64,000 nt of DNA. Source: Parcubacteria group bacterium. GTDB taxonomy: Bacteria; Patescibacteriota; Minisyncoccia; Moranbacterales; UBA11712. Below the pieces are notes generated by a model. The model was not told the origin of the DNA. It saw nothing but the letters and a program-made list of their open reading frames with translations, and searched no databases. The position numbers and the translations under genes are program-made. Within the stretch, counting starts at the first letter, position 1, and each line of letters begins with the position of its first letter. This document shows positions 1,911-46,314 of the stretch, piece by piece. The stretch spans positions 974-64,973 of the forward strand of contig JBAZYY010000005.1 of assembly GCA_041659065.1 (NCBI GenBank), read 5' to 3'.

Positions 1911-3764
1911 TTAATCATTTATATACGAAACTAATTTTTGAAATTCGTCTATTAATATCCTTACTGCGGCTTTGTCGCCGCTTTTTTCGGCTAATCTGAT
2001 ATCCTCCGAAATTTCCGTAATTCTTCGCTTGATATTTTTTTGCTGGAGCCTCTCCAGGTATAATTTCAGTTCATTGCCAGGATCTGTTGGGCTGCTGTTT
2101 TTGATTGAGCTGTCTTCCCCGAATTGGACTTCGGCCTCAAAAGCCGCTTCATCGGAATATTTTCTAAGTTCGTAGTCGGAAATGGCACTGTTGATTTTCT
2201 CCCGGTCATAATCCTCGCCCAGCCTTTTCACTATTTCGACTATTTTCCTTTCTTTCGCGCCGTGAAAATCTTCAAGATTTACTTTTCCTAATTTGCGCTG
2301 GCAAGTTTTGGGAAAATTTACCAGAATCCCCACGATTCTTTTTTCAAGCGCTTCATCCTTGTCGTCTGGCGTTACGGTTGGTTTCTTTTCGATCGTGCTT
2401 TGTCTTTTTTCTTTTTCTTTTGCCTTTTTCAGCACATCGAAGAGTACTTCTTCGGAGGTACCCAGCTTTTGGGCCAGTTCATTTATCCAGTGCGACTGTT
2501 CAACGGGGCTGGCAATGTCTTTTACGACATTAAGCAGTTCACTGGCTATTTTTTTCTTTCCAGCCGGATCTTTCGCGTTGTGGCGTGAAAAGGCCTCCTG
2601 AAAAAAATAGTCAACGACATTTTTCGCCTCCTCGATTGCTTTCTTCCAAATCGCTTTGTCTTGCTTTATGGCCTCCGCGGCATCTTTTCCGGAAAGCAAC
2701 AATATTATTTTAACATTTAAATCGTTTTCTAGACAGGTTTTTATGCTTCTTCTGGCAGCCGCTTGGCCGGCCGCGTCCATATCGAAACTCATCTTTACGT
2801 TTTCCGAATAACGCTTGATGATTTTCACCTGATCTTGCGTGAGGGCAGTGCCGGATACGGCAATCACATTTGGAAAACCGGCTTGGTGGCTGGCTACCAC
2901 GTCGAGATTTCCCTCGACCAAGATTGACTCATCCGCTTTTTTAATTTCAGCTTTGGCGAAATTCAGTCCATAAAGGACTTTACCCTTATCATAAATTTCG
3001 GTTTGCGGAGTATTGATATATTTCGCGTTTTTTTCATCGCCTCCCGGAGCGACTCGCGCGCTGTAGCCGACAATTCGGCCGACTACATCAAAAATCGGGA
3101 ACATTATGCGGTCGCGAAACCGATCATAGGAATTAGATTTGAGCTTTGAGATTTGAGATTTGAGATTGTTGTTAGATATTGGGTATTGGATATTGGATAT
3201 TTCTTTCTCTACCAATAGCCCAGTCTTGTTAATTTCTTCGATCGTAAACCCTTTCTTTAATAAAAACTCAAGCAAATTTCGCCAGCCATCAGGCGCATAG
3301 CCCAAGCGAAATTTTTTTATGCTCTCGTCTTGGATCCCCCGGTCATGCAGATATTTTAGTACTTTTTCTTTCCCCTTTCCTTCCCAGAGATTTTTTTCAT
3401 ACCACTTCGTCGCGAGCTCCAGAATTCCATATAGTTTAGGCTTAATATTCTCTTTTTCAACGCCTCGCTCGCCTTTTTCAAATTTTGTGAGTTTTACTCC
3501 CGCTTTTTGAGCCAGCTGCTCAAGCGCCTCCCTGAATCCTATTCCTTCCATCTCCATGACAAATGAAAGCGCGTCTCCGCCTTTCCCGCAACCAAAGCAA
3601 TGCCAGATTCCTTTTTCTTCGCTGACCATGAACGAAGGCGATTTTTCATTATGAAAAGGGCAGAGCGCCCTGTGATTGCTCCCTGCTCTTGTGAGCCGGA
3701 TATATTCCCCTATAAGATCAGCTATATTAATCCGGCTTTTTACTTCTTCAACATCCGAATTCAT
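1911..3764 (-). CDS. dnaG: DNA primase DnaG
   Basis: A CHC2 zinc finger (CPFHNEKSPSFMVSEEKGIWHCFGCGKGGD) and a TOPRIM core (VEGNLDVVASHQAGFPN) are present. The gene contains an in-frame heptamer-repeat insertion at 3135-3201. Confidence 0.9.
   Translation of the reverse strand: MNSDVEEVKSRINIADLIGEYIRLTRAGSNHRALCPFHNEKSPSFMVSEEKGIWHCFGCGKGGDALSFVMEMEGIGFREALEQLAQKAGVKLTKFEKGERGVEKENIKPKLYGILELATKWYEKNLWEGKGKEKVLKYLHDRGIQDESIKKFRLGYAPDGWRNLLEFLLKKGFTIEEINKTGLLVEKEISNIQYPISNNNLKSQISKLKSNSYDRFRDRIMFPIFDVVGRIVGYSARVAPGGDEKNAKYINTPQTEIYDKGKVLYGLNFAKAEIKKADESILVEGNLDVVASHQAGFPNVIAVSGTALTQDQVKIIKRYSENVKMSFDMDAAGQAAARRSIKTCLENDLNVKIILLLSGKDAAEAIKQDKAIWKKAIEEAKNVVDYFFQEAFSRHNAKDPAGKKKIASELLNVVKDIASPVEQSHWINELAQKLGTSEEVLFDVLKKAKEKEKRQSTIEKKPTVTPDDKDEALEKRIVGILVNFPKTCQRKLGKVNLEDFHGAKERKIVEIVKRLGEDYDREKINSAISDYELRKYSDEAAFEAEVQFGEDSSIKNSSPTDPGNELKLYLERLQQKNIKRRITEISEDIRLAEKSGDKAAVRILIDEFQKLVSYIND
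3135..3201. repeat. Degenerate heptamer tandem repeats (GATTTGA / TTGGATA units) inside dnaG, in frame
   Basis: The tract reads gatttgagctttgagatttgagatttgagatt ... gatattgggtattggatattggatatt. It encodes an extra SNIQYPISNNNLKSQISKLKSNS loop relative to E. coli DnaG. Confidence 0.7.
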
Positions 3765-3832
3765 CTAAAAAGCCAAACGCATAATTTTACCTTTAAAATG
3801 GAAAATTTATGCGGCCTGTATAATAATTTACG

Positions 3833-4111
3833 CTATATAACGACACAAGCTTTCGCCACGATTCCGTACAGCTTATTAAGCTTCTTGGTTATGGCGCTGA
3901 TTTCCCCGGCCGTTGCCTCAACTGCGACCGTGATCATGGCCGTACAGCTTTCATTGCAGTGCCTTTGGACGTTTACGCCAAGCCTGGCCATTATCAAATG
4001 GCCGCTGTCCGTGAGAATTTGATTCACCTCCGGGGCATGCATCTGCCGATCTTTGACAAGAATCGTAATTGTGGCTAAATGAAGTTTTGTTTTTTTGGTT
4101 TTATTCGGCAT
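3833..4111 (-). CDS. Small ACT/NikR-C-like domain protein resembling the TM1266 'iron-only hydrogenase system regulator' family
   Basis: The 92-aa product has the pattern ITILVKDR...VNQILTDSGHLIMARLGV...ITVAVEATAGEISAITKKL. This matches the conserved layout of the TIGR03959-type small regulators. Confidence 0.45.
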   Translation of the reverse strand: MPNKTKKTKLHLATITILVKDRQMHAPEVNQILTDSGHLIMARLGVNVQRHCNESCTAMITVAVEATAGEISAITKKLNKLYGIVAKACVVI

Positions 4112-4176
4112 AGATATCGCTTACTCCTCTCCAATACTCTAGCGGAAATATTGAATTTTGTATAGCTTTCTGCCTA

Positions 4177-4557
4177 TTAGCTTTTCCAGAGTCCGTGGAT
4201 GTTGCAGTATTCCCTTGCGCTGACATTTTCGGCCTGAGTCGGGAATTCGGCTTCTGGAACGTCTCCCGGTTTGAGAAATTTTCGGCAATTCCTGCCACCG
4301 GGCACTATGAGTTCAATCCATTCTATATAATGCGTTTCTTCCATTGGGTGGGGAATTGATCCAATCTTAACTTTGTAACCAGTCTCTGTTTTTTCAATAA
4401 TGGGTACATGCTTTTCCGTGAGCCCTTCTTCCTCATGTTTTTCCGTTAAAAGTTCCATTGGTTCCTCACAACAGACAAGATCCCCCTTTCCGCTGTGTAG
4501 GATTTCAACGATATTGCCGCATTTATTGCACTTGTAGATTTGATTTAGCTCAGCCAT
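4177..4557 (-). CDS. dfx: Desulfoferrodoxin / superoxide reductase
   Basis: An N-terminal desulforedoxin Cys cluster (CNKCGN...CCEEP) is followed by a C-terminal neelaredoxin domain with EKHVP and HPMEE..H..IEWIE ligand motifs. Confidence 0.85.
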
Positions 4558-4685
4558 GATAATTTGATTTAAGAATTATGAATTAAGAATCAAAATATTT
4601 TATATTTTTATTCTCGTGTTCCAAAAAATATAGTGTACATATTATGTGTTACGTGTTCTATGCTCTATGCTCCATGTTATGTGAT

Positions 4686-5270: not shown

Positions 5271-5349
5271 GGATTTGTTTTAATTATTAGCTGCTTAAAC
5301 TATTACGTCGTCAACTGGAATGTTTTTCCAACATTCTTAGTTAAAGTTA

Positions 5350-11123: not shown

Positions 11124-11157
11124 AGAATTTTAAAATTGAATAATTTAATAATTTGTT

Positions 11158-11190
11158 TGAAAATTGAAAATTAGAAATTGAAAATTGAAC
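11158..11190. repeat. Heptamer tandem repeat (GAAAATT x4), intergenic between ahcY and the kinase
   Basis: The tract reads gaaaattgaaaattagaaattgaaaattgaa. Confidence 0.7.
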
Positions 11191-12144: not shown

Positions 12145-12162
12145 AGTATTGGTTTTTAATAG

Positions 12163-12247
12163 CGGAGAGGGAGGGAGTCGAACCCTCGATACCTTGCGGT
12201 ATACCCGCTTTCCAAGCGAGCGCACTAGGCCACTATGCGACCTCTCC
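12163..12247 (-). tRNA. tRNA-Ser (anticodon GGA)
   Basis: The reverse complement folds as a cloverleaf. It has a GGAGAGG/CCTCTCC acceptor stem, an anticodon loop UUGGAAA (GGA), a long variable stem-loop (GUAUACC-GCAA-GGUAUC), and a T-arm GAGGG-UUCGACU-CCCUC. The discriminator is G and there is no encoded CCA. Confidence 0.8.
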
Positions 12248-17911: not shown

Positions 17912-17988
17912 TTTTTCACCTCGCTTTCTGTTTTGAAGATTTTTATTTATCCGAATAACCTCTAAGTTTTCTGGTTTCCTTGATTGTA

Positions 17989-18432
17989 TTAAAGCATACT
18001 TTCCAGCTCCCGCAAAATATCCTCCGGAATAGGATCTCTTTTGGGACTCACGCCCGGATAGCGCCACGCGCTGATTATGCGTATTTTCGGTGTTTCAAAA
18101 CTTTTGACTTTTGATTTTTGACCTTTGACTTTTTTTTCGTACATCGCCCAAATTTCGCTACTCCAGACTCGTTTCCCCTCCTTTGTGCGGAGTGATGTCG
18201 GCCCGCCTCGCGTCGACTCTCCTTGATTCGGCGAAGCAGGCAAGCGGACAAAGCGAGTCGAGGCGGGCTGCATAACTGCGATTGTGTTTTTTACGATTCC
18301 TTCTTCCGTTCTTTTCGGATTTTTCACCACCCGCAAAATCCTTTGCGCCGTGAGGCCGTATTGCTTCATCTTGTATGCCGCGTGTTGCGTCCACTCGTAT
18401 TTTTCCGTGTTTTTTGGAATCTTGAACCGCAT
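17989..18432 (-). CDS. Hypothetical protein
   Basis: The start is chosen at MRFKIPKN to avoid overlap with the TrmB gene. The coding region contains a heptamer repeat tract (18101-18138). Confidence 0.4.
   Translation of the reverse strand: MRFKIPKNTEKYEWTQHAAYKMKQYGLTAQRILRVVKNPKRTEEGIVKNTIAVMQPASTRFVRLPASPNQGESTRGGPTSLRTKEGKRVWSSEIWAMYEKKVKGQKSKVKSFETPKIRIISAWRYPGVSPKRDPIPEDILRELESML
18101..18138. repeat. Heptamer tandem repeat (CTTTTGA-like x5) inside hypothetical CDS
   Basis: The tract reads cttttgacttttgatttttgacctttgactttttttt. Confidence 0.65.
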
Positions 18433-18436
18433 AGAA

Positions 18437-20984: not shown

Positions 20985-21105
20985 TTTAAATCCAAAACCC
21001 AAAGTTCAAATATCAAATCAAGTTCAAAGCCCAAAATCCAAACTTTGACATTTGGATTTTGGATTTTATTTGTCTTTTAGATCTTGATATTTGGATTTTC
21101 CGCTA
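20985..21105. repeat. Heptamer-periodic repeat region with inverted symmetry (AAATCCA.../...TTTGGAT) between lemA and htpX
   Basis: The left part aaatccaaaacccaaagttcaaatatcaaatcaagttcaaag faces the right part tttgacatttggattttggatttta. The two are reverse complements and could form a large hairpin. Confidence 0.6.
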
Positions 21106-23550: not shown

Positions 23551-24832
23551 CTTTCGGGTCATTCCAAGGAATCCTTTTCGCACCGATAACCATTATTTCC
23601 TCTGCGCCTTTCCCGGTTATGACTACGATGCCTCCCGGCTCCGCTAACTCGAGAGCTTTTTTTATAGCTTCGCGCCGATCCATAATCCGCCAAGCGTCCT
23701 TGAATTCCTCTTTTTTACCAAGTACTCCTTCGAAGACCTCGTCGATAATTTGCTGAGGGTCTTCATTGTAGGGATCTTCATTGGTCACTATGCATAAATC
23801 AGCATAGCTTGCGACAATTTCTCCCATGATAGGGCGCTTACCGCGATCGCGCTCTCCGCAGGAGCCAAAGACAGCAATGATTTTGGAGCCGCTACTTTTT
23901 AGTTTGCTTACATAGCTATATAATTTTTCAAGAGAATCAGGCGTTAAGGCGTAATCTACGATTACCTCAATGCCATGATCGTTCTCGATATGCTCCATCC
24001 GCCCTGGCACGCCCTTTATTTTCGAAAGCGCATTCGAAATCTTCCCAAGGCTTATGTCTTGGGATAGCCCGGCACAAATTGCCGCGAGAGCATTTTCTAT
24101 ATTAAATTCTCCAGGTAAATTTATTGAGAATTGAGAATTGAGAATTGAGAATTGAGAATGTTTGATACCTAATTTTATATTTTCAGCGATAATAGTTTTA
24201 AATTTTAAGCTGTCACTTTGAACTTTGAACTTTGAACTTTGAACTTTTATCCCATATCCATATTTCTTTTTAAAATCATAATTCAAGAAGTTATCTGCCT
24301 TCTCCATCTGCAGATTTACAACTCCTACGCTATTTTTATTTTTTACAGCCATCCTAAACAGCTTTTCTTTGGCCTGGGCATAAATATCAATGGTATTGTG
24401 ATAGTCGAGGTGCTCGCGAGTCACGTTAGTAATAACCGCGACCAGAAAATTAACACCCCACACCCGGTTTTGATCAAGCGAATGCGAGGAAACCTCAAGT
24501 ACTGCGTATTCACATTTGGCTGCAACGGCCTGGTGCAAGAATTTTTGGAGCGCGAAGCTAGAAAGAGTCGTGAATTTGCTTTTGTTCACCCACTCCTTTT
24601 CGCCCAGCTTGAAATTGATCGTCGAAGCAACAGCGATCTTATGTCCAGCTTCCTCCAAAACTTTCGCGATCATCTGAACTGTCGTCGTCTTTCCGTTCGT
24701 CCCTGTCACTCCGATTACCTTGAGACGCCGCGACGGAAAACAGTATCGGACATTCGCCAAGATGGCTTGGAAAAGATGATATATATTTTTAGCGAATTGG
24801 GGAATAAGTTTTTTTATCCAGTTAGAAATCAT
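23519..24832 (-). CDS. murE: Mur ligase, MurE-like (UDP-MurNAc-L-Ala-D-Glu:diamino-acid ligase) with a short N-terminal domain
   Basis: The central domain has VIGVTGTNGKTTT, LEVSSHSL and TNVTREHLDYH. The C-terminal domain has DYALTPDSLEKLY and FGSCGERDRGKRP. Two heptamer-repeat tracts (24124-24158, 24217-24244) lie in frame. Confidence 0.7.
   Translation of the reverse strand: MISNWIKKLIPQFAKNIYHLFQAILANVRYCFPSRRLKVIGVTGTNGKTTTVQMIAKVLEEAGHKIAVASTINFKLGEKEWVNKSKFTTLSSFALQKFLHQAVAAKCEYAVLEVSSHSLDQNRVWGVNFLVAVITNVTREHLDYHNTIDIYAQAKEKLFRMAVKNKNSVGVVNLQMEKADNFLNYDFKKKYGYGIKVQSSKFKVQSDSLKFKTIIAENIKLGIKHSQFSILNSQFSINLPGEFNIENALAAICAGLSQDISLGKISNALSKIKGVPGRMEHIENDHGIEVIVDYALTPDSLEKLYSYVSKLKSSGSKIIAVFGSCGERDRGKRPIMGEIVASYADLCIVTNEDPYNEDPQQIIDEVFEGVLGKKEEFKDAWRIMDRREAIKKALELAEPGGIVVITGKGAEEIMVIGAKRIPWNDPKVIREVLRELG
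24124..24248. repeat. Two heptamer tandem tracts inside murE (TTGAGAA x5 at 24124-24158; TTTGAAC x4 at 24217-24244)
   Basis: Both tracts were read directly. They encode SQFSILNSQFSI and KFKVQSSKFKVQS in the MurE frame. The 35-nt tract length is not a multiple of 3. Confidence 0.75.
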
Positions 24833-24913: not shown

Positions 24914-25957
24914 TTATAGGATTATTTTTTTAGCTTTCTGAATCGCTCTGTATAGATTGTATTTTACCGGATTTAAAATAATATCATAACTTCCTGGAAA
25001 TTCAATCGGTTTCGTCTCCGGCGCAAAACCGGTTTTGAATTTGGTGATCCCAGACCAAGAATTGTTCCTTGTTATGTGTTTCGTGCTGTGTGTCTTGACT
25101 CCGCCAAAGTCGTATCGCGCACATCCATCCTTATTTGCGTCGAGAATCTGCCGCCATTGCAAAAGATACGGCGCCATGACATTCCTATGGTCATTATCAG
25201 AAGCTCCGTGCATATATGTCGCAGTTTTCCCGAAAAACAGAACAAGGTTGGCCGCAATTATCTTTCCCTCATACTCTGCGATATATAGCTTTAAAATATC
25301 AGATGGGATAATCTCAAACATCCGGCGGTAATAATTTTCGGGGTGAGGCGTTATTTTATCCCTTTCCGCCGTGATTTTTACTAATTGACAAAATCCATCA
25401 ATATATTTTTTATCTCGAGAAGTAAAGACTTCAACATTCTTCTTCTCAGCTAATCTAATGTTATAGCGAGTTTTCTGCTTCATCTGTCTTAGCAGCTCAT
25501 CTTTGCTTTTTGAAATATCCAAAACTAAAATTTCCCTAGGCTGCATGTCCACTGCTGATTTTTTCATTTTCAGACTCCCCGGTAAATTCTCTTTAACAGC
25601 TTGCAAAATATCCTCGCTCGCTGGATCAATTCTCACCCATCCAATATTATTTTTTTTAGACAGATCAAGTAAATCAGGAAAAAAAGTTTTGAATTTTTCG
25701 CTGTAGTTTTTCGCTTTTCGCTTTTCGCTTTTCGCTTCAAAAACCGGTCCGCGCGGAATATAAAAATATTTTCCCACTATCGGCAATTTATGCTCAACTA
25801 TATTTGCGAAAGCAATCAGCCCTTCACTACCATCGCTAGCTGAAATATTATAAGTTTCTCGCCCAACGCTTTCCTGAAATTTTCGCCAATACTCCGACTG
25901 CAAAAAGCCCCCATCGGGGGAATTGAATTGAATAAAATTTCTCATATTATCTTCCAT
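24914..25957 (-). CDS. FemAB-family peptidyltransferase (peptidoglycan interpeptide bridge formation)
   Basis: The size and conserved blocks fit the FemAB family (YFYIPRGPV, ...YLLQWRQILDANKDGCARYDFGG). It is adjacent to murE. It contains a TTTTCGC x4 repeat tract in frame. Confidence 0.6.
   Translation of the reverse strand: MEDNMRNFIQFNSPDGGFLQSEYWRKFQESVGRETYNISASDGSEGLIAFANIVEHKLPIVGKYFYIPRGPVFEAKSEKRKAKNYSEKFKTFFPDLLDLSKKNNIGWVRIDPASEDILQAVKENLPGSLKMKKSAVDMQPREILVLDISKSKDELLRQMKQKTRYNIRLAEKKNVEVFTSRDKKYIDGFCQLVKITAERDKITPHPENYYRRMFEIIPSDILKLYIAEYEGKIIAANLVLFFGKTATYMHGASDNDHRNVMAPYLLQWRQILDANKDGCARYDFGGVKTHSTKHITRNNSWSGITKFKTGFAPETKPIEFPGSYDIILNPVKYNLYRAIQKAKKIIL
25707..25737. repeat. 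Heptamer tandem repeat TTTTCGC x4 inside the FemAB-family gene
   Basis: The tract reads ttttcgcttttcgcttttcgcttttcgc and encodes AKSEKRKAKSEK-like residues on the minus strand. Confidence 0.7.
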
Positions 25958-26374: not shown

Positions 26375-26413
26375 CCTTTGAATGAATCAATTTTTATTTA
26401 CGATTCAGATTTA

Positions 26414-27166
26414 TCAATAAGTCTGCTCCTTATATTTCCTGTATCTTCGCCAAAACCAGAATCCTAACCCTCCGACAAATAGTATTATCCCAAATACTGT
26501 GATTATTATCCAGCTTGCTGACTTCCCAGATAATTTTTGAGAATCGTTTTGCGCTGCGCTGGCTTTTTCCACCACAACTGGATCGAGTTTCGGCTCCTGA
26601 TTTTTGCAGTCCTGCGGACAATTTTCGCTGTCTTCAACTGGCCGTTCGCACTGATCGTTTTCATTGCAGGTGGCTTTCGAGGAAAGGTCAATCGTCAAAA
26701 CCTTTTTGCCATAAGAGTCAAAGATGTCGGCGTATTTCCCGTTGGGGAAATATGGCATTTGAACAATAATCTTTCCTTCCGGCAGCTCCTCGCATCCGCC
26801 GCTCATCTCACCTTCCTCGTCCGCAAAGTCACTGCAATATATAGGACTAAGATTATAATTCACAACAAAATATCCCAAGACTGTATTTTTAAATGAAACG
26901 ACTCTCCCATTAGCTGAATTTCCTTTCCAGTTTTTATAGTCGGTTTGATAAGCGAACTCTCCCGTAGTTATTTCAAGTCCTCTGACTTCATAATTTCCAT
27001 CTTTTTTATAAAGATTAGCGTTCAATGTTTTGGACGATATTTTATAGATCGAATTTTCACTTAATGGTTCCAACTGGCTGTTCGCCCAAGAGAAACTAAA
27101 CAGCAAACAAGCAACGCTTAAAAATATTTTAAAAATTATAGTTTTATATATTTTTTCTTTTTTCAT
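26414..27166 (-). CDS. Hypothetical secreted/anchored protein (signal peptide plus C-terminal TM)
   Basis: An N-terminal signal-like segment is followed by a Cys-containing ectodomain. The C-terminus has a TM helix and basic tail (WIIITVFGIILFVGGLGFWFWRRYRKYK). The start overlaps the stop of the downstream partner. Confidence 0.45.
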   Translation of the reverse strand: MKKEKIYKTIIFKIFLSVACLLFSFSWANSQLEPLSENSIYKISSKTLNANLYKKDGNYEVRGLEITTGEFAYQTDYKNWKGNSANGRVVSFKNTVLGYFVVNYNLSPIYCSDFADEEGEMSGGCEELPEGKIIVQMPYFPNGKYADIFDSYGKKVLTIDLSSKATCNENDQCERPVEDSENCPQDCKNQEPKLDPVVVEKASAAQNDSQKLSGKSASWIIITVFGIILFVGGLGFWFWRRYRKYKEQTY

Positions 27167-28719
27167 CTTTCTCCTTTGTTTTTTAGTAACTCGGAAATTT
27201 TTCCGCTCAAAATATTTCTGTAATCATCTTTATTTCCTCTATTTTCCTCGATCAGCTCCAAGAGGACTACGGCATGCATTTTTGCCCATTTAATTTGATA
27301 AGGTTGACTTTCATAATCAAGCCCGGATTCTAAATCTGCCGACGCTAACCCGGCTTCTTGTCGACATTTTTTGTCATGAATTCTCCAGGCCTTCAAAATT
27401 TCGTTGGTCAGATATTGTAGTCTCGCACCGTCATTCGTGAAATAATCATAGCGCCTTTGAACATCATCTGTGATTTTTCTGTAATCCAAACCGCGCCTCA
27501 CGGTATCTTTCGCATCAAAAAACGTCCCAAGATCATCAATTATGGTTCTTTCTCGGATATCTTGATATTCGGCTGAATTTTCAGGAGGCAAATCAGTATT
27601 TTTAACCGTAGGTGCTATCGATAAAACTCTTTTTCTCGTTTCTCTTTTACGAATAAGCCAGGGTATAGATATACTAATAATGATCGGGAGCAATGGGATA
27701 GGAATCAAAACTCTTCTAGATCGGCTTCCCTCATAATGTATCGTTATTTCAACCATTCTTTTGGACAGCAACATTTCTTCAAGCAGTCTCTTGCTGCTCC
27801 TGTCTTCGACGCTTTCCTCGTTGTATCTTTTTATCAAATTATAAATTTTTTCCATGTCATCGCTCCCGGGCATTTCAGCAGCCAATGTTTTCAGTTCGAA
27901 AAGCTCTATTTTTGAAAATTGGATCTCCTTCGCCTTAATCCGGGAGGCAGCTTCTTCGATTTTCTTAAGATCGACTCCGCTCCTCGCAAGCCATTCTTTT
28001 GAAAGGAAAAGGGCGGTTCGCCCTCGCATCAAAGCAAGATCCAGGTTTTCTCTGTCGATTTTTCCGGGTTTGATTGATTCGGGACTTGATCCTTCAGGTG
28101 AGGCCGTTCCGGTAATTTCAATGCTTTTTATTTCCAGACCTTCGGGCGCTTTTTCGCGAGAATTATTATAAACTTTTTTGTTCCAATCCCACCCGTAGAG
28201 AATTTCCGCAAATTTCTTCTTCAGGTCCCGATCGATATATCTTTCCATCGCCGGAAAATGGTCCGGATTCATCGGCTTGCCGGCTTTTCCATCGCCAGCG
28301 AAAAGACGAGCATATTCAAATGGAATCTGAAAGGTCATTTTACCGTCTTTTTTTTCAAGATATGAAAATTCCGTTTGCAGTATCGCAACGAGAGACCATA
28401 TATTAAATTTGGGATTGCCGTTTTCATCCACACCTTCAAAAAAAGTGCATCCTGCTTCCGGCCATTGGATTTCTCCCGACCGGAATTTTTCTGCAGTCTT
28501 AATATGCATATCGGACCAGTCTCTTTGCATTTGTGTTTCGGGATTATTTTTTCCCGAATTAGAAATTTTTTCCCGGTTTTCCGCTTTTGTGGAATTATCC
28601 ATTGGGAGAGAAAAAGCCAGCATCGCAAGACCAGTACTCATAGCCCGGTAGAGTTCTGGGAAATATTTTTTCTTTTCTTCGCCTTCTTTATTTTCCCCAG
28701 AACTTTCAATTTTTACCAT
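27163..28719 (-). CDS. Hypothetical protein with a central TM helix
   Basis: This 518-aa product has a 4-nt stop/start overlap with 26414..27166. No motif was recognised. Confidence 0.45.
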   Translation of the reverse strand: MVKIESSGENKEGEEKKKYFPELYRAMSTGLAMLAFSLPMDNSTKAENREKISNSGKNNPETQMQRDWSDMHIKTAEKFRSGEIQWPEAGCTFFEGVDENGNPKFNIWSLVAILQTEFSYLEKKDGKMTFQIPFEYARLFAGDGKAGKPMNPDHFPAMERYIDRDLKKKFAEILYGWDWNKKVYNNSREKAPEGLEIKSIEITGTASPEGSSPESIKPGKIDRENLDLALMRGRTALFLSKEWLARSGVDLKKIEEAASRIKAKEIQFSKIELFELKTLAAEMPGSDDMEKIYNLIKRYNEESVEDRSSKRLLEEMLLSKRMVEITIHYEGSRSRRVLIPIPLLPIIISISIPWLIRKRETRKRVLSIAPTVKNTDLPPENSAEYQDIRERTIIDDLGTFFDAKDTVRRGLDYRKITDDVQRRYDYFTNDGARLQYLTNEILKAWRIHDKKCRQEAGLASADLESGLDYESQPYQIKWAKMHAVVLLELIEENRGNKDDYRNILSGKISELLKNKGER

Positions 28720-28736
28720 GACTTTTTTGCAAATAT

Positions 28737-31174: not shown

Positions 31175-31270
31175 ATTTTGTATCTTGTATATAGTATCTA
31201 GTATTTAGTATATTATTTCAATAGCAGCTCCCATTTACAAAAGTTGATTATCATGTTAGAAATATAAGGT

Positions 31271-31332
31271 AATTTTCAACAATTTTTAATTTTCAACTGC
31301 AACTTTCAACTTTTAACTTTGAACTTTGCACT
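31271..31332. repeat. Heptamer-periodic repeats (AACTTTN units) upstream of rpsT
   Basis: The tract reads ttttcaacaatttttaattttcaactgcaactttcaacttttaactttgaactttgcacttga. Confidence 0.65.
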
Positions 31333-31346
31333 TGAGTATAACGAAC

Positions 31347-33182: not shown

Positions 33183-33214
33183 AAACTTCACACTTTTAAC
33201 TTTGCACTTTTAAC
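33183..33214. repeat. Heptamer repeats (ACTTTTAAC-type) between holA and the DUF3048 gene
   Basis: The tract reads aacttcacacttttaactttgcacttttaactag. Confidence 0.6.
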
Positions 33215-34335
33215 TAGCTTTGCGGTTCCCACTTCAGTGCTTGGCCCGGCTCCAGAACTTCAACCCAAAGTTGGCCAGGAACAAATTTAACTTCCTGCCC
33301 TTGGTCGTCATATAGAAAAAGCTTAGAAGCCCATTTGGACTTGTCTTTCTTCCAGCGCCCCTTGATCTCTTTACCGTTAAAATAGTAATAAGCATCCCCT
33401 TCGCTGACAGTATCAAACTGCGGGTCTCCGATCTGAACATTGTTATATTGTCCTTCAATCTGTTCGGAAGACGCAATCACTACAGCGATATTTTTAGGGG
33501 CGTTTCTTTTGCCGTTATTGGCGTCCACATCCGCGACTTTGTTCCAGGTACGAAGATAAGTGTTAGTGGCTTTGTCATAGTCGTAATCCACCGCGTAGGG
33601 ACCTGCAAATCCGACACGTAAATGCCCGCCATTTGGTCTCTGGTCAACCGGTGCCTCAGCTTGATGCGGATACCCCGTAAATTTGTCCGTCATATCATAG
33701 CCAGCGTCTTTGGCGCATTGAAGCAGCTTATCAAATTTGGCAAATCCGTTGTCCGGGGGTGCGATCCCTTCTTTCCTAAAACCACATTGCGGAGCCTTGT
33801 GCCCGAAACTCCCGTTCAGATCCAGATTATCAACTGCTCCTTTGTTCAGAATATCCCCCGCGAAGTGCGACCCTCCCCAATGGGTGAGAATTGCGTCCCA
33901 GCCGGCCGCAAGCGCGATATAATCATGCCGAGTAGAACGAATGGAGCCTACCTCGGTCGGATCATTGCAGACATAGAGCGCCATAAGACGCGTAATGCTC
34001 GCGGTTATGGCCGGCATCTCAAGGACCAAATCCGCGTCTGAGAAACCGCTATCCGGTCGCACGCTAAGATCGGCAGCCTCCATCACCGCAATCGGCCTTC
34101 GATTCCAATTCGCGCATTGCAGTCCCGAAAACGGACTTACATCGCCGGAATTCGCCGGAGCTCCCGTATCAACCTGGCCTTTCAGCGAATCCGTAAGAAG
34201 ATCATTCGCCTTTCTGTTGCCAAACCATCCCGAAAAATATCCGACAACCAAAATAATAACCGCTACTGCCACAATGCCCAGGATAGTCTTTTGTTTACCG
34301 CCCATCATGGCGATTTTGTTTATTAGCCCCTTCAT
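33214..34335 (-). CDS. DUF3048 (YerB-like) exported protein
   Basis: An N-terminal TM/signal is followed by the conserved PIAVMEAADLSVRPDSG...EMPAITASITRLMALY blocks typical of DUF3048. Confidence 0.55.
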   Translation of the reverse strand: MKGLINKIAMMGGKQKTILGIVAVAVIILVVGYFSGWFGNRKANDLLTDSLKGQVDTGAPANSGDVSPFSGLQCANWNRRPIAVMEAADLSVRPDSGFSDADLVLEMPAITASITRLMALYVCNDPTEVGSIRSTRHDYIALAAGWDAILTHWGGSHFAGDILNKGAVDNLDLNGSFGHKAPQCGFRKEGIAPPDNGFAKFDKLLQCAKDAGYDMTDKFTGYPHQAEAPVDQRPNGGHLRVGFAGPYAVDYDYDKATNTYLRTWNKVADVDANNGKRNAPKNIAVVIASSEQIEGQYNNVQIGDPQFDTVSEGDAYYYFNGKEIKGRWKKDKSKWASKLFLYDDQGQEVKFVPGQLWVEVLEPGQALKWEPQS

Positions 34336-34355: not shown

Positions 34356-35213
34356 TTATTTTTGGCACTTCGGGCAATAGAAGGTGCTTCTTTGCCCAAT
34401 CACCTTTCTTTGGATTATTGTACCACAAACCGCGCATTTTTTTCCAGCTCGGCGATAAACCTTGAGCGCTTTTTGAAAATTCCCGGGAGCCCCGCTCGTA
34501 TCCCGATAATCACTATCTGACGTTCCACGCATCCGAATGGCTTTTTTAAGTATTTTTTTGATTGCGGAATACAGCTTCTTGCGTTCAGCTAAGACCAGGC
34601 TTTGGGACGCACGATCCGGCAAAATACCGGCTTCGTGCAAAATTTCACTGGCGTAAATATTTCCAATGCCGGCAATAACAGTTTGATTTAGCAAAAGCTC
34701 CTTTATTTTTGTCTTGCGACCGTCTAGTATCTTATTCAGCTTAAGCAGATCGAAAGAAGAGCTCATGGCATCAACCCCTAAATCTTTAATGCCCTTCACC
34801 TGATACAGTTTTCCTGCGTCGGCTAATATTAATTTTCCAAATTTTCGCACGTCTGAAAATTCAATTGTCTTCCCGCCTTTCAAATAGAAGATATGACGAA
34901 CATACTGATTCACCCTGTCCTCAAAATAATCCCTTCCATAACTTTTCACTTTTAACTTTTCACTTTTAACTAGTAAGTGTCCTGTCATCCTGAGATGCAT
35001 GGCAATTGCCTTCCCGCCGTCCAAATTCAAGATAATATACTTCCCTTTCCTCTCAACATTAATAATTTTTTTGTTTTTAATGGCTTCCCTGAATTTTGCG
35101 ACAGGATTATTCAGACCTTTCGCCCAAGCACTCCAAAAACTGACGATAGTCTCGCCTTTAATTTTGCGGTTCAAATCGTCGACAATTGTCTGCACTTCGG
35201 GAAGTTCCGGCAT
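34356..35213 (-). CDS. mutM: Formamidopyrimidine-DNA glycosylase
   Basis: The catalytic N-terminus MPELPEVQT is present, with an H2TH motif and a C-terminal zinc finger CAVCGTIIQRKVIGQRSTFYCPKCQ. A heptamer-repeat tract (34941-34973) lies in frame. Confidence 0.9.
   Translation of the reverse strand: MPELPEVQTIVDDLNRKIKGETIVSFWSAWAKGLNNPVAKFREAIKNKKIINVERKGKYIILNLDGGKAIAMHLRMTGHLLVKSEKLKVKSYGRDYFEDRVNQYVRHIFYLKGGKTIEFSDVRKFGKLILADAGKLYQVKGIKDLGVDAMSSSFDLLKLNKILDGRKTKIKELLLNQTVIAGIGNIYASEILHEAGILPDRASQSLVLAERKKLYSAIKKILKKAIRMRGTSDSDYRDTSGAPGNFQKALKVYRRAGKKCAVCGTIIQRKVIGQRSTFYCPKCQK
34941..34973. repeat. Heptamer tandem repeat (TTTTCAC/TTTTAAC x4) inside mutM
   Basis: The tract reads acttttcacttttaacttttcacttttaactag and encodes KVKSEKLKVKS. 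Confidence 0.7.
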
Positions 35214-41116: not shown

Positions 41117-41217
41117 GGTGAGTCATTTCGATTCAAGAAATGGCGCGAACCTTACCAACTAATTCATCAAATCAGACTTTAATAGGATCACTCAAGACCG
41201 CCAAAGGAGATATCGCT

Positions 41218-42807: not shown

Positions 42808-42926
42808 CGGCACCCTCATGATTATTCATTACCAACCTCCCCCGGTGACAGCACTCATCGGGGGTTTCTTTATAAAAAAACCGCGCAAGCGATACCTTAA
42901 TTTTTCACTTTAAACTTTTAACTTCT

Positions 42927-45638: not shown

Positions 45639-45647
45639 CCAGTTGAG

Positions 45648-45746
45648 CTAAAAACTAAAATCGAAAAGCGAAAAACAACAGCTAAAAGGTAAAAGATTTT
45701 CGTTTTTAGTTTTTGCTTTTACATTTTAGATTTTCGCTTTTAGCTA
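45648..45746. repeat. About 100-bp heptamer-periodic tract with large inverted symmetry, spanning the tsaE stop codon and the polA upstream region
   Basis: The tract runs gctaaaaactaaaatcgaaaagcgaaaaac ... gattttcgtttttagtttttgcttttacattttagattttcgcttttagc. The first seven units are reverse-complementary to the last seven. Confidence 0.6.
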
Positions 45747-46248
45747 TTGAAATTTTGCGCGTATTTTCTTTATTGTACTCAAACTTCATCCACACTGCAT
45801 CTTTTGGAACGATAGATCTGATTCTTTCCGCCCATTCGGCAATCACAATATTATTTCTGCCGGCAATAATTTCTTCCCATCCCAAATCCAAAATATCTTT
45901 CGCGCCGACTCGGTAGGCATCAATGTGATAAATATTTTGTATCTGGTATCTTGTATCTAGCATTTGGTATTTTTTTTGAAATTGGGATTTCGATATTTTG
46001 AATTTATTTGGAATTTGGGTTTTGGAATTTGTGATTTCTTTCTTGTAATGCTTCATTACAAGAAAGGTAGGGCTTGTATACGGACCTTTTGCGCCTAGTC
46101 CCTTTAATACGCCTTGAGCAAACGTCGTCTTCCCGCTCCCTAGTTCCCCTGAAAGACAAATGATCTCTCCGCCCCGAAGTTCCTGAGCCAGCATTTCACC
46201 AAGTTTTCCAGTCTGTGCGGCGTTTATTGTATCAAAAATTTTTTGCAT
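45706..46248 (-). CDS. tsaE: tRNA threonylcarbamoyladenosine biosynthesis protein TsaE (YjeE ATPase), with a repeat-encoded insertion
   Basis: The P-loop LSGELGSGKTTFAQGV, SPTF and HIDAYRV blocks are present. An insertion of about 30 aa between SPTF and HIDAYR is encoded by the heptamer-repeat tract 45934-46040. Confidence 0.75.
   Translation of the reverse strand: MQKIFDTINAAQTGKLGEMLAQELRGGEIICLSGELGSGKTTFAQGVLKGLGAKGPYTSPTFLVMKHYKKEITNSKTQIPNKFKISKSQFQKKYQMLDTRYQIQNIYHIDAYRVGAKDILDLGWEEIIAGRNNIVIAEWAERIRSIVPKDAVWMKFEYNKENTRKISIAKSENLKCKSKN
45934..46040. repeat. Heptamer-periodic tract (TATCTNG / TTTGGAA-like units) inside tsaE
   Basis: The tract reads ttttgtatctggtatcttgtatctagcatttggtattttttttgaaattgggatttcgatattttgaatttatttggaatttgggttttggaatttgtgatttc. 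Confidence 0.65.
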
Positions 46249-46263
46249 TTAACTTTAATAAAA

Positions 46264-46314
46264 TTTTGAGTTTTGAGTTGTAGCTTTAAGCTTTGCGTTT
46301 TGACTTTTAAGCTT
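46264..46314. repeat. Heptamer repeats (TTTTGAG / TTTAAGC units) upstream of tsaE
   Basis: The tract reads ttttgagttttgagttgtagctttaagctttgcgttttgacttttaagcttga. Confidence 0.6.

What the first reader, a model, noticed from the sequence alone, without database searches (positions are those of the whole stretch)
3135..46314. Pervasive family of degenerate heptanucleotide tandem repeats, including in-frame insertions in essential genes
At least 14 tracts in this window share a strict 7-bp period with T-rich units. They occur in intergenic spacers and inside the coding regions of dnaG, murE (two tracts), a FemAB gene, mutM, tsaE and a hypothetical gene. The units are:
- GATTTGA and TTGGATA (3135-3201)
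- GAAAATT (11158)
- CTTTTGA (18101)
- TTGAGAA x5 and TTTGAAC x4 (24124-24248)
- TTTTCGC x4 (25707)
- AACTTTN (31271)
- TTTTMAC (33183, 34941)
- a roughly 100-bp palindromic array (45648-45746)
- TATCTNG and TTTGGAA types (45934-46040)
- TTTTGAG (46264)

In the essential genes the tracts translate as extra low-complexity loops relative to E. coli homologs. These include SNIQYPISNNNLKSQISKLKSNS in DnaG, SQFSILNSQFSI and KFKVQSSKFKVQS in MurE, and a roughly 30-aa insert in TsaE. Seven is not a multiple of three, so a single-unit slippage would frameshift these genes. The murE TTGAGAA tract is 35 nt. The system is therefore either held in frame by selection or constitutes an unusual contingency or mutational mechanism. 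The consistent unit length across unrelated loci argues for a specific generating process (templated insertion or a selfish mini-satellite) rather than independent slippage events.
Basis: seen in the sequence. Interest (0 to 1): 0.65.

Follow-up and report, generated by a model that had tools for sequence, protein, structure and literature searches.

The report
Seven-base repeats inside essential genes
An uncultured ultra-small bacterium (Moranbacteria, candidate phyla radiation) and its relatives carry many short tandem repeats of exactly seven bases, mostly translated in frame inside housekeeping genes such as murE, dnaG, mutM and tsaE; these repeats change by whole units between near-identical strains, so they show how repeat slippage reshapes essential proteins.

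Summary
Period 7 is the only tandem period enriched in the window: 8-11 strict tracts against 0 in shuffles, and 24 of 63 TRF rows. The same holds across 733 kb of related Moranbacteria loci, with 135 period-7 tracts against at most 8 for any other period. About 73% of tracts lie in frame inside genes. They sit at orthologous positions in MurE, the FemAB-family protein, MutM and a hypothetical protein, but the unit differs between species with all copies changed together. At one MurE site the array has the same length as the native beta-hairpin it replaces, so it is an in-place overwrite and not an insertion. DnaG and TsaE carry true insertions. Near-identical strains differ by swaps of adjacent units, by one 21-nt (3-unit) in-frame indel, and in three assemblies by a 7-nt deletion that splits murE (real or assembly artefact: unresolved). 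The best reading is a lineage-wide slippage process with a 7-nt step, filtered by selection to stay in frame and stop-free. This is a coding-rich variant of the known heptanucleotide repeat excess in bacteria (cyanobacterial STRR, TAACTGA, neuO). Adaptive phase variation and a mobile-element origin are not supported. The reason for the 7-nt step is unexplained.

The parts
3135..3201 (-). Two adjacent heptamer arrays inside dnaG (1911-3764, - strand). Sense units are CAAATCT x4.7 and CAATATC x3.9. They encode ...ISNIQYPISNNNLKSQISKLKSNS...
   Evidence: TRF; periodicity scan; DnaG family match. The segment is about 18 aa longer than in S. aureus primase 4e2k.
4569..4676 (.). Two short arrays (TTAAGAA x3.1; TCTATGC x2.9) in the spacer between rubrerythrin (4686-5270) and desulfoferrodoxin (4177-4557). 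The second ends 8 nt before the desulfoferrodoxin start.
11157..11189 (-). Array with sense unit AATTTTC x4.7, filling much of the pfkB-ahcY spacer. The spacer sequence is conserved in L081 and L083.
18100..18133 (-). Array with sense unit AAAAGTC x4.9 inside a 147-aa hypothetical gene (17989-18432), encoding KKVKGQKSKVKSF. Orthologous arrays occur in L081 (same unit) and L084 (AAAAGTK).
21051..21067 (.). Weak array (TTTGGAT x2.4) in the LemA-M48 peptidase spacer. The same spacer in L084 holds an inverted pair of arrays.
24123..24159 (-). murE site 2: perfect array, sense unit ATTCTCA x5.3, encoding HSQFSILNSQFSI. This is the beta-hairpin just before the conserved LPGEFN motif. It replaces the native hairpin in place, with no change in length.
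   Evidence: The AF2 model places strands at 225-230 and 236-240.
24215..24247 (-). murE site 1: perfect array, sense unit AAAGTTC x4.7, encoding KVQSSKFKVQS in a low-confidence surface loop.
   Evidence: pLDDT is below 50 for residues 198-207.
25708..25737 (-). Perfect array, sense unit GCGAAAA x4.3, in the FemAB-family gene (24914-25957), encoding EAKSEKRKAKN. Arrays sit at the same position in five relatives, with units AAAAGTG, AAAAACG, AAAACGC, AAATCCC and ACATGAA/GCATGAA.
27151..27184 (-). Weak A-rich array (74% matches) across the junction of two unannotated genes (26414-27166 and 27163-28719).
31180..31211 (-). Array with sense unit about AGATACT, x4.6, running up to the ruvA start codon (31174). 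Orthologous arrays lie upstream of ruvA in L083 and L084.
31280..31333 (+). Array (CAACTTT x7, degenerate) in the divergent ruvA/rpsT spacer, directly upstream of rpsT (S20, 31326-31616, + strand). It is not inside a real gene.
33192..33215 (-). Array with sense unit AAAAGTK, filling the 36-nt DUF3048-holA spacer. It matches, with 3 mismatches, the 32-mer found in mutM.
34939..34971 (-). mutM array: sense (AAAAGTT AAAAGTG) x2.4, a perfect 14-mer, encoding KSEKLKVKS in a loop. The T/G alternation avoids TAA and TGA as the reading frame rotates through the units. The DNA is identical over 32 nt in L084 mutM.
42897..42924 (-). Array (AAGTTAA type, x4) directly after the polA stop codon, followed by GC-rich terminator-like hairpins.
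45648..45745 (-). Inverted pair of arrays (sense ...AGCTAAAAGCGAAAATCT... then ...TTTTCGCTTTTCGATTTTAG...). They form a hairpin of about 45 bp that spans the last 12 codons and the stop codon of tsaE and the tsaE-polA spacer.
   Evidence: RNA fold -26.3 kcal/mol, z = -3.1, 0 of 200 shuffles as stable. Inverted partner scores 18/21.
45934..46031 (-). Degenerate compound arrays inside tsaE (45706-46248), encoding KEITNSKTQIPNKFKISKSQFQKKYQMLDTRYQIQNI. This is a true insertion of about 32 aa in a loop whose length varies among relatives.
46264..46308 (-). Array with sense unit CTCAAAA, x6.6 (74% matches), ending 16 nt upstream of the tsaE start codon.

Best explanation
The window comes from a Moranbacteria (Parcubacteria/Patescibacteria) genome whose lineage has a mutational process that duplicates, deletes and homogenises DNA in steps of exactly 7 nt.

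How it works:
- Short arrays of 3-7 units arise from local sequence wherever a few bases recur at 7-nt spacing. They then evolve in concert: one substitution spreads over all units.
- In intergenic DNA the arrays persist in both orientations. They often lie directly upstream of start codons or occur as inverted pairs that fold into long hairpins.
- Inside genes, selection passes only arrays that keep the frame and are free of stop codons in all three phases. Net length changes of 0 or 21 nt (3 units, 7 codons) keep the frame.
- The stop-codon filter explains why the sense strand is rich in A and C and poor in G, and why arrays encode 7-residue periodic K/N/Q/S/I/F peptides.
- Surviving arrays sit in tolerant loops (DnaG, TsaE, MutM, MurE site 1). 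At MurE site 2 an array replaces a beta-hairpin whose native 7-residue spacing the repeat can mimic.

Shown: period-7 specificity, orthologous persistence with unit turnover, strain-level unit swaps and a 21-nt indel, and the equal-length replacement at MurE site 2.

Inferred: that the process is replication slippage or template switching, that the coding arrays have no function of their own, and the selective filter. The reason for the 7-nt step is unknown.
For: - Period 7 is the only enriched period in the window.
- The same holds in 733 kb of Moranbacteria loci: 135 tracts, against at most 8 for any other period from 4 to 12.
- Period-7 tracts also occur in Kuenenbacteria and in Uhrbacteria (GC 56-60%). 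They are near zero in about 55 loci from Saccharibacteria and from bacteria outside the candidate phyla radiation.
- Arrays lie at orthologous sites in MurE, the FemAB-family protein, MutM, the hypothetical protein and the spacers, but with different units.
- Differences between orthologous arrays cluster on the same unit phase: 78 same-phase pairs against 40 expected, 0 of 10,000 simulations as high.
- Units at MurE site 2 form a network linked by single substitutions (ATTCTCA, ATTCACA, ATTCAAA, ATACAAA, ATACTCA). Native orthologs carry one copy of the unit in their E-F-S codons.
- Array and native forms of MurE site 2 have the same length. Array bearers were monophyletic in 0 of 60 bootstrap trees.
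- L085 and L132 are 99.97% identical outside one divergent patch. Two of their 7 remaining mismatches are a swap of adjacent units at MurE site 2.
- That species has four haplotypes at the site. The two sequences seen on most contigs (29 and 27) carry different haplotypes.
- L097 and L100 have no other resolved base differences over 11.8 kb (three further differing columns are N's in L097); they differ by one 21-nt, 3-unit indel in a murE array.
- Sense-strand composition of coding arrays is A 53%, C 18%, G 6%, T 23%. The T/G alternation in AAAAGTK avoids TAA and TGA as the frame rotates (sequence read).
- The AF2 model shows MurE array 1 as a low-confidence loop and array 2 as hairpin strands.
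- Prior literature reports a heptanucleotide excess in many prokaryotes and proposes polymerase slippage as the cause.
Against: - Nothing here shows why the step is 7 nt. A plain slippage model would predict repeats with periods of 3, 6 or 9 to be the best tolerated in genes, and they are not enriched.
- One 32-mer (AGTTAAAAGTGAAAAGTTAAAAGTGAAAAGTT) recurs at five places in four non-orthologous contexts across three genomes. The mutM array is identical over 32 nt between genomes whose MutM proteins are 67% identical. This hints at copying between loci or constraint at the nucleotide level.
- All 78 dereplicated coding arrays lie in genes co-oriented with murE. None lies in 81 kb of opposite-strand coding sequence. 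Selection on peptides alone does not predict this.
- Some spacer arrays are conserved in sequence (pfkB-ahcY), and 20 of 37 abut a start codon, so a function for that subset is possible.
- The phase-clustering test does not separate homogenisation from unequal constraint among unit positions.
Confidence: 0.6

Rival explanations
1. The arrays are functional nucleic-acid elements. Tandem heptads would be bound one protein per unit (for example by a cold-shock or OB-fold protein or another heptad reader), or would act as leader, promoter or terminator structures. The coding copies would be tolerated spill-over or a second use of the same signal.
For: - 20 of 37 intergenic or edge arrays end within about 16 nt of a downstream start codon.
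- About 40% have an inverted partner array and fold into long hairpins, against 3-5% of coding arrays.
- The pfkB-ahcY spacer array is conserved in three genomes, and ruvA-upstream arrays in three.
- Similar placement next to ORF ends is reported for TAACTGA and GGGNATC heptamers, and CspB is reported to bind heptamer repeats.
Against: - Unit sequences differ widely between loci and between orthologous sites, which argues against one sequence-specific reader.
- 73% of arrays are inside genes.
- The hairpins are AT-rich and do not resemble classical terminators. Classical GC-rich terminator-like hairpins stand beside some arrays.
- No Rfam family matches any array.
Confidence: 0.15
2. This is a contingency or diversity system. 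Unit slippage would switch genes off and on or diversify surface loops adaptively, or frameshifted alleles would be rescued by recoding during expression.
For: - Three independent one-unit (-7 nt) deletions split murE in assemblies of three different species.
- One species has four haplotypes of the MurE hairpin.
- neuO of E. coli K1 is a proven phase-variable gene with an in-frame heptanucleotide repeat.
Against: - The genes are housekeeping genes (dnaG, murE, mutM, tsaE), for which an off state has no evident benefit.
- Arrays have only 3-7 units, against 3-53 in neuO.
- All three frameshift alleles are x4 to x3 collapses of perfect arrays in one series of MEGAHIT assemblies, so an assembly artefact cannot be excluded.
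- All other orthologs are intact.
Confidence: 0.07
3. The arrays are copies of a mobile or templated element: a selfish minisatellite, ectopic gene conversion between arrays, or synthesis from an RNA template by a reverse transcriptase.
For: - The same 32-mer occurs at non-orthologous loci in three genomes.
- Certain unit types recur: CAAA occurs in 46% of coding units against 7% of background 7-mers.
- Reverse transcriptase and bAvd genes are present in relatives.
- Other small palindromic inserts are shared between TsaE and MurE loops.
Against: - Most units are specific to their locus.
- Neighbouring species differ by single in-phase substitutions.
- The MurE unit pre-exists in the native sequence.
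- Arrays have no terminal signatures or target duplications.
- The 32-mer is absent from viral contigs.
- Avoidance of stop codons can produce the AAAAGTK pattern by convergence.
Confidence: 0.08
4. This is ordinary low-complexity protein evolution or an assembly artefact, with no DNA-level process involved.
For: The peptides are hydrophilic and of low complexity, as is common in loops. At MurE site 1 the loop is predicted to be disordered.
Against: - The periodicity is 7 nt, not 21 nt, and is equally present in non-coding spacers.
- The same arrays appear in independent assemblies from different samples, including 100% identical contigs.
- No other period is enriched.
Confidence: 0.02

Closest known systems
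Heptanucleotide long simple-sequence repeats of prokaryotes (Mrazek, Guo and Shah 2007, as summarised in PMC4679880 and PMC4692102)
   Same: Tandem 7-nt units are the over-represented class of longer simple repeats. They are dispersed over many loci, occur in phylogenetically scattered lineages, and polymerase slippage with a 7-nt contact length has been proposed as the cause.
   Different: That survey is described as finding repeats whose units are multiples of three to be the most likely class within coding regions, and the later heptamer studies found their repeats mainly intergenic. Here 73% are in frame inside conserved housekeeping genes. I found no report for Patescibacteria.
Cyanobacterial STRR repeats (Calothrix/Nostoc heptamers) and GGGNATC repeats of Xanthomonas and Nostoc (PMC4692102)
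   Same: Short arrays, typically about 4 units, of 7-nt repeats at many loci, often within 50 bp of ORF ends. Function and origin are unknown.
   Different: [quoted passage not shown] The GGGNATC type is G-rich and forms quadruplexes. Here units are diverse, rich in A and C, and mostly coding. Arrays of STRR1-3 and GGGAATC units are absent.
TAACTGA direct repeats of marine Beggiatoaceae, cyanobacteria and Bacteroidetes (MacGregor 2015, PMC4679880)
   Same: Heptamer arrays of 2-6 copies lie directly upstream of start codons. Occasional copies inside ORFs are read as 7-residue repeats (LSVISYQ) that are predicted to form beta structure.
   Different: That family has one fixed unit and is mostly intergenic; the ORF cases are small hypothetical proteins. 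Here there is no TAACTGA, and the arrays lie in essential enzymes at orthologous sites.
Geobacter metallireducens four-heptamer elements (GGACCGG consensus, 49 copies; PMC2700814)
   Same: [quoted passage not shown]
   Different: That is a single GC-rich consensus, interpreted as a regulatory RNA element. No unit turnover or in-frame logic is described.
neuO of E. coli K1 and the hmw1A/hmw2A promoters of Haemophilus influenzae (heptanucleotide contingency loci)
   Same: A 7-nt repeat inside a coding sequence (neuO, AAGACTC) is translated only when the copy number is divisible by three. Copy number changes by strand slippage (hmw).
   Different: Those are single loci in surface or virulence functions, with long tracts (3-53 units) and demonstrated on/off switching. 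Here there are many loci with 3-7 units in housekeeping genes, and switching is not demonstrated.
In-frame selfish or slippage inserts in housekeeping proteins (Rickettsia palindromic elements; Plasmodium low-complexity inserts). This comparison is from my own knowledge and was not checked in the library.
   Same: DNA-level processes place extra low-complexity peptides into surface loops of essential proteins without destroying their function.
   Different: Rickettsia palindromic elements are copies of one 100-150-nt element, and Plasmodium inserts are mostly triplet-based. Neither has a 7-nt register or overwrites a structural hairpin at equal length.

Membership tests
Heptanucleotide long simple-sequence repeats (prokaryotic LSSR class) | Head-to-tail tandem copies of a 7-nt unit, three or more copies | tested here: met
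   TRF gives 24 period-7 rows, several with 100% matches. Sequences were read.
Heptanucleotide long simple-sequence repeats (prokaryotic LSSR class) | Period 7 over-represented relative to chance and to other periods | tested here: met
   Window: 8-11 tracts against 0 in shuffles, and at most 2 for any other period. Relatives: 135 tracts against at most 8.
Heptanucleotide long simple-sequence repeats (prokaryotic LSSR class) | Copy number or unit order varies between close strains (slippage behaviour) | tested here: met
   A 21-nt indel, unit swaps and four haplotypes, and three -7 nt alleles of uncertain reality. No variant of the window's own strain was available.
Cyanobacterial STRR / TAACTGA / GGGNATC fixed-unit heptamer families | One or a few fixed unit sequences reused at most loci | tested here: not met
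   Units differ from locus to locus. No doublets of STRR1-3, TAACTGA or GGGAATC occur in the window or in 721 kb of relatives.
Cyanobacterial STRR / TAACTGA / GGGNATC fixed-unit heptamer families | Predominantly intergenic, under-represented in coding sequence | tested here: not met
   98 of 135 tracts lie fully inside ORFs. Intergenic enrichment is only about 1.7-fold.
Phase-variable contingency loci | Repeat unit not divisible by three, located inside an ORF or promoter | tested here: met
   7-nt units lie inside dnaG, murE, the FemAB-family gene, mutM and tsaE, and in 5' leaders.
Phase-variable contingency loci | Frame-shifting copy-number variants present in natural populations | tested here: inconclusive
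   Three -7 nt alleles split murE, but all are x4 to x3 changes of perfect arrays in one MEGAHIT assembly series. No reads were available.
Phase-variable contingency loci | Affected genes encode surface, host-interaction or restriction functions where on/off switching is adaptive | tested here: not met
   The affected genes are the primase, a Mur ligase, a FemAB-family transferase, Fpg and TsaE.
In-frame mobile palindromic elements (Rickettsia palindromic element type) | Dispersed copies of one conserved element with palindromic arms | tested here: not met
   Coding arrays are direct repeats with locus-specific units. Inverted partners occur at 3-5 of 98 coding arrays. Separate palindromic inserts do exist in relatives but are a different feature.
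Intrinsic terminators (for the inverted array pairs) | GC-rich stem followed by a U-run at the 3' end of a transcription unit | tested here: inconclusive
   The tsaE hairpin is stable (-26.3 kcal/mol, z = -3.1) and its 3' arm is U-rich, but the stem is AT-rich and was not picked up by the terminator scan. Transcript ends were not available.
Protein-bound heptad iterons (omega/ParB-type, WATCACW) | Conserved heptad consensus shared by all arrays | tested here: not met
   AATCACA doublets occur at only 3 places in 721 kb of relatives and at none in the window. Units are otherwise diverse.

The most novel reading that the evidence does not exclude
Moranbacteria and some other Parcubacteria may possess a dedicated or highly unusual replication or repair property that rewrites DNA in a 7-nt register. 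It would be fast enough for one-unit frameshift alleles of an essential gene (murE) to reach assembly-level frequency in three species. In that case either split or recoded MurE is functional, or these cells tolerate periodic loss of peptidoglycan precursor synthesis. The same process would repeatedly convert a conserved structural hairpin of MurE into a repeat-encoded mimic and would act only on genes of one orientation.
Probability: 0.12. Interest if true: 0.85.

Novelty: new variant of a known kind. Interest (0 to 1): 0.6.

Why it matters
The excess of heptanucleotide repeats in bacteria has been known since 1990 (STRR) and 2007 (genome surveys), but its cause and function remain unexplained, and the known cases are mainly intergenic.

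This lineage offers a version in which selection on reading frame and protein fold acts as a built-in readout. Orthologous arrays in essential enzymes show:
- unit turnover;
- replacement of a beta-hairpin at equal length;
- 21-nt polymorphism between near-identical strains;
- possibly one-unit frameshift alleles.

That makes three questions directly testable with existing metagenome reads and simple reporters: the rate, the step size and the strand asymmetry of the process.

It also matters in practice. Such tracts can split essential genes in assemblies of candidate-phyla-radiation genomes. They also add low-complexity loops that confuse annotation and alignment.

Tried and rejected
- An exact look-up of the window MurE found no contig. 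The organism was identified through the homology search instead.
- DNA of the closest relative (P0003, 82% identical) could not be retrieved.
- I suspected a frameshift between the overlapping ORFs 17564-18067 and 17989-18483 at the 18100 tract. I rejected it: the tract is in frame in a 147-aa gene, and the other ORF has a later start.
- The 145-aa ORF over the 31280-31333 tract is spurious; it is antisense to rpsT.
- Literature searches combining heptanucleotide or heptamer terms with Patescibacteria, Parcubacteria or candidate phyla radiation returned nothing relevant.
- The recurrent 32-mer was not found in viral contigs.
- No Rfam family overlaps any array; the only hit is a tRNA-Ser.
- DnaA boxes are not enriched (15 matches against 13 expected), so the window gives no evidence of an origin that could explain the strand bias.
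- Protein clusters of the window's own genes contain no length variants; the one extra FemAB member differs only in its start codon.
- TsaE clusters at 90% identity show no loop-length polymorphism, only differences in the called start.
- Among 91 more distant TsaE relatives, loop lengths include an 8-15-22-29 aa series, but other lengths (26, 28, 32, 39) dominate. A strict 7-aa quantisation is therefore not supported.
- The 200-nt divergent patch between L085 and L132 lies in polA and looks like a recombination boundary, not a repeat effect.

Full report
**1. Observation**

Tandem Repeats Finder on the window returns 63 rows, of which 24 have period 7. Seven more rows, with periods 14 or 21, overlap the same arrays. 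The next commonest periods have 5-6 rows each. All period-7 rows lie between 2.4 and 48.1 kb.

I checked the excess with two scans of my own:
- Exact runs at lag 7: 5 runs (141 nt) against 0.0 in 20 shuffles that preserve dinucleotide content. No other period stands out.
- A tolerant window scan: 8 tracts (345 nt) for period 7, and none for any period from 2 to 13, either in the sequence or in shuffles. A looser threshold gives 11-16 tracts.

**2. Organism and genes**

The MurE protein is 100% identical to an NCBI entry named 'MAG: Parcubacteria group bacterium', from an 85,369-nt contig. Its nearest relatives are Candidatus Moranbacteria.

Family searches confirm these genes:
- dnaG (1911-3764)
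- murE (23519-24832)
- a FemAB-family gene (24914-25957)
- mutM (34356-35213)
- tsaE (45706-46248)
- neighbours polA, holA, ruvA, LemA, an M48 peptidase, pyruvate kinase, PPDK, pfkB and ahcY

All these genes are on the - strand. The order TsaE-PolA-MutM-DUF3048-HolA-S20-RuvA-FemAB-MurE-DUF212-hyp-LemA-M48-...-PfkB-AhcY is kept in relatives.

- The tract at 31280-31333 lies in the divergent ruvA/rpsT spacer. The ORF over it is antisense to rpsT.
- The overlapping ORFs around 18100 are not a frameshift.

**3. A property of the lineage**

I fetched syntenic loci from GTDB genomes, from metagenomes and by exact protein look-up. Over 733 kb of Moranbacteria sequence there are 135 period-7 tracts. 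The counts for periods 6, 8, 9 and 12 are 7, 7, 8 and 7.

Period-7 tracts also occur in Kuenenbacteria and in Uhrbacteria, whose GC content is 56-60% and whose units are correspondingly GC-richer (GAGTATC, AGTGAAG, GGGCAGC). They are essentially absent from about 55 loci of Saccharibacteria, Firmicutes, cyanobacteria and others. The 7-nt step therefore does not depend on base composition.

**4. Where the arrays lie**

Of the 135 tracts, 98 lie wholly inside ORFs, 12 straddle a gene end and 25 are intergenic, with 89% of the sequence coding. Most have 4-6 units; the median length is 37 nt.

On the sense strand, coding arrays are 53% A, 18% C, 6% G and 23% T. This follows from the arithmetic of the repeat. 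A 7-nt unit is read in all three frames over 21 nt, so the circular word must avoid TAA, TAG and TGA in every phase. In an AT-rich unit that penalises G.

The mutM array shows the filter directly. Its units alternate AAAAGTT and AAAAGTG so that T or G falls exactly where the other base would create TAA or TGA (sequence; translation).

**5. Orthologous arrays and unit turnover**

I marked residues encoded by 7-nt periodic DNA in alignments of the syntenic genes. Arrays appear at the same positions in several species: two sites in MurE, one in the FemAB-family protein, the MutM loop and the 147-aa hypothetical protein. The ruvA leader and the pfkB-ahcY spacer also carry arrays in several species.

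Units often differ by one to three substitutions that are carried by all copies. At MurE site 1 the unit is AAAGTTC in the window and AAAGTCC in L081. At the FemAB site the units are AAAAGCG and AAAAGTG. In MutM the units can be unrelated: AAAAGTK, AACCCAA and GAAACAA.

Across 14 array-bearing orthologs of MurE site 2:
- Within-array unit identity (77%) exceeds the identity of units at the same position in different species (63%).
- Differences between six pairs cluster on the same unit phase: 78 same-phase pairs against 40 expected, 0 of 10,000 simulations as high.

Caveat: unequal constraint among unit positions would also raise this statistic. The strain-level data in section 8 are the stronger evidence.

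**6. MurE site 2 is an overwrite, not an insertion**

Orthologs fall into two classes at this site:
- A native form, xGSEFxINGxxFxLNLPG, with no DNA periodicity.
- Array forms, with units ATTCTCA, ATTCACA, ATACTCA, ATACCAA, ATTCAAA, CTACRCA and AGTTACA.

The array forms encode [ST]-x-[FY]-x-[IL]-x-N twice. This reproduces the 7-residue spacing of the F and I positions in the two strands of the native hairpin.

The distance between flanking anchor residues is 24 aa in all 17 array forms and in 21 of 26 native forms. In a neighbour-joining analysis with the repeat region masked, array bearers were monophyletic in 0 of 60 bootstraps, and parsimony needs 3-5 changes of state. This suggests repeated conversion of the same hairpin, although the tree is only approximate.

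Native sequences already contain one copy of the unit in their E-F-S codons (GAATTCTCAAT in L088). This favours a local origin.

An AlphaFold2 model of the window MurE (mean pLDDT 79) places array 2 in two beta-strands (225-230 and 236-240) and array 1 in a loop with pLDDT below 50.

**7. Insertion or not, against solved structures**

- The DnaG segment is about 18 aa longer than in S. aureus primase.
- TsaE carries about 32 extra residues between conserved blocks.
- MutM has about 9 extra residues.
- MurE has about 8 extra residues, mostly at site 1.
- Among 91 TsaE relatives the loop ranges from 8 to 42 residues. An 8-15-22-29 series is visible, but other lengths are commoner.

**8. Variation between near-identical strains**

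(a) L085 and L132 are identical at all but 7 positions over about 19.5 kb outside one divergent patch. Two of the 7 positions are 7 nt apart in MurE site 2 and exchange adjacent units ATTCTCA and ATTCACA. The 90% protein cluster of that species holds all four combinations (FT or FS with IL or IH); the two sequences seen on most contigs (29 and 27) carry different combinations.

(b) L097 and L100 have no other resolved base differences over 11.8 kb (three further differing columns are N's in L097); they differ by a 21-nt indel that removes exactly three units (GAATCAG GAATAAG GAATAAA) from a murE array. A third sample carries the long allele. The flanking direct repeat is only 10 nt, so an assembler artefact is unlikely here (my inference from how de Bruijn assemblers work).

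(c) Three contigs from different species carry a deletion of exactly one unit, which splits murE into two ORFs:
- L165 against L167: AAAGTTC x4 to x3, at site 1
- L166 against L168 and L170: ATTCAAA x4 to x3, at site 2
- L171 against L085: AAATTTC x4 to x3, at site 1

All three come from one series of MEGAHIT assemblies, and all affect perfect arrays of about 32 nt. Such arrays can form cycles at the smallest k-mer size. I therefore cannot decide between real slippage variants and assembly collapse.

(d) In another sample the window strain is assembled as two contigs, 100% identical to the window. One of them ends 10 nt after MurE array 2.

**9. Intergenic arrays**

Intergenic arrays occur in both orientations. 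Twenty of 37 end within about 16 nt of the next start codon. Thirteen to 16 of the 37 have an inverted partner array within 90 nt, against 3-5 of 98 coding arrays.

The window example spans the tsaE stop codon. It folds into a hairpin of about 45 bp (-26.3 kcal/mol, z = -3.1), and its left arm encodes a C-terminal extension of TsaE that L084 lacks. The pfkB-ahcY spacer, which is built largely of AATTTTC units, is conserved in three genomes.

These features resemble what is reported for TAACTGA and GGGNATC heptamers. They leave room for a leader or terminator role, which I could not test.

**10. Explanation**

The evidence fits a slippage or template-switch process with an intrinsic 7-nt step. 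It creates and homogenises arrays everywhere. In ORFs, selection passes only changes that preserve the frame (net 0 or 21 nt), stay free of stop codons and remain compatible with the fold.

A two-step route could overwrite a hairpin without any frameshifted intermediate: a gain of 21 nt followed by a loss of 21 nt. The observed 21-nt polymorphism and the occasional 31-residue variant at site 2 are consistent with this route.

I put this explanation at 0.6. The rivals are:
- a function as nucleic-acid elements, 0.15 (mainly for the spacer subset);
- a mobile or templated origin, 0.08;
- adaptive contingency or recoding, 0.07;
- protein-level evolution alone or an artefact, 0.02.

**11. Unexplained**

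- Why the step is 7 nt.
- Why all 78 dereplicated coding arrays lie in genes co-oriented with murE, with none in 81 kb of opposite-strand coding sequence. In the window itself there are none in about 21 kb of + strand genes, which include ruvB and ribA-type housekeeping genes. The window gives no sign of an origin, and orthologous pseudo-replication weakens the statistic.
- Why one 32-mer recurs in mutM, the FemAB-family gene, a hypothetical gene and a spacer across three genomes.
- Whether the -7 murE alleles are real.

**12. Comparison with known systems and novelty**

The phenomenon belongs with the known excess of heptanucleotide repeats in prokaryotes. It works like slippage-prone simple repeats. 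neuO of E. coli K1 shows that an in-frame heptanucleotide repeat can be translated and can switch by unit slippage.

It is not a member of the fixed-unit families (STRR, TAACTGA, GGGNATC, the Geobacter elements). Units are diverse, those specific units are absent, and most arrays are coding.

I found no report of this in Patescibacteria. I class it as a new variant of a known kind. Its distinctive traits are that it is coding-rich, persists at orthologous sites, evolves in concert, and at one site mimics a structural element of an essential enzyme.

Noticed in passing
Relatives' proteins: TsaE loop (P0128, P0178, P0191, P0181 and others) and MurE loops (P0003, P0054, P0061/L084 about 10650-10700, P0067, P0110, L092): A second kind of in-frame insert is shared between unrelated loops of TsaE and MurE in different genomes. 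One type is a GC-rich short palindrome (peptides such as SASPAGG, PAYRTGRQ, LPTGRQE). The other is an element of about 24 aa, F[SP]K[VA]R[PL]FP...IPQ[GS]Q[TA]L, whose ends are reverse complements (CAAAGTCCGACC / GGTCAGACTTTG). Several of these sit inside heptamer arrays. They resemble Rickettsia palindromic elements.
   Followed up: partly
Window 36335-40151, 41140-42807, 46975-48126 and 49244-63348 (+ strand genes); relatives' opposite-strand genes: No period-7 array lies in any gene on the strand opposite to murE: 0 in 81 kb against 78 in 503 kb. The + strand genes include ordinary housekeeping functions such as RuvB and GTP cyclohydrolase II.
   Followed up: partly
L165 3579, L166 981, L171 3101 (relatives): One-unit (7-nt) deletions in perfect arrays split murE into two ORFs in three ENA MEGAHIT assemblies from three species. 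They are either real frameshift alleles or a systematic assembly collapse.
   Followed up: partly
Window 23519-24832 (murE) and all relatives: MurE lacks the N-terminal domain: the match starts at profile position 67 of 472. All 120 listed relatives have the same short form.
   Followed up: no
Window 26000-30584: Four genes lie between the FemAB-family gene and ruvA. In L082, L083 and L084, ruvA directly adjoins the FemAB-family gene, so this looks like a strain-specific insertion. Two of the four were scanned and have no NCBIfam match; the other two were not searched.
   Followed up: no
L081 2770-4174; L083 11393-11767: Relatives carry genes typical of a diversity-generating retroelement (a bAvd-like accessory gene plus an RVT_1 reverse transcriptase) next to the FemAB-family gene, and a bAvd/23S_rRNA_IVP-type ORF between the pyruvate kinase and PPDK genes.
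   Followed up: no
L085 835-1034 against L132 236-435 (inside polA): A 200-nt patch holds 50 mismatches in genomes that are otherwise 99.97% identical, and the alignment is lost upstream of it. It is probably the boundary of a recombination tract.
   Followed up: partly
Window 12537-12577: A G-rich 15-nt tandem repeat (GGTGGGGGTGGAAAG x2.7, 96% matches) lies in the 12434-13309 ORF region. It could form a quadruplex.
   Followed up: no
Window 12162-12247: A tRNA-Ser(GGA) gene on the - strand overlaps the 5' end of the longest pfkB ORF, so the true pfkB start must be further downstream.
   Followed up: no
Window 51334-54375: A 1013-aa protein contains two type II/IV secretion ATPase (T2SSE) stretches, which looks like a tandem fusion.
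   Followed up: no
Window about 24108-24119 (Wr 39893); L120 and L149: In sample Ga0172379 the same strain is assembled as two contigs, 100% identical to the window. One ends 10 nt after murE array 2, and 77 nt are missing between them.
   Followed up: partly
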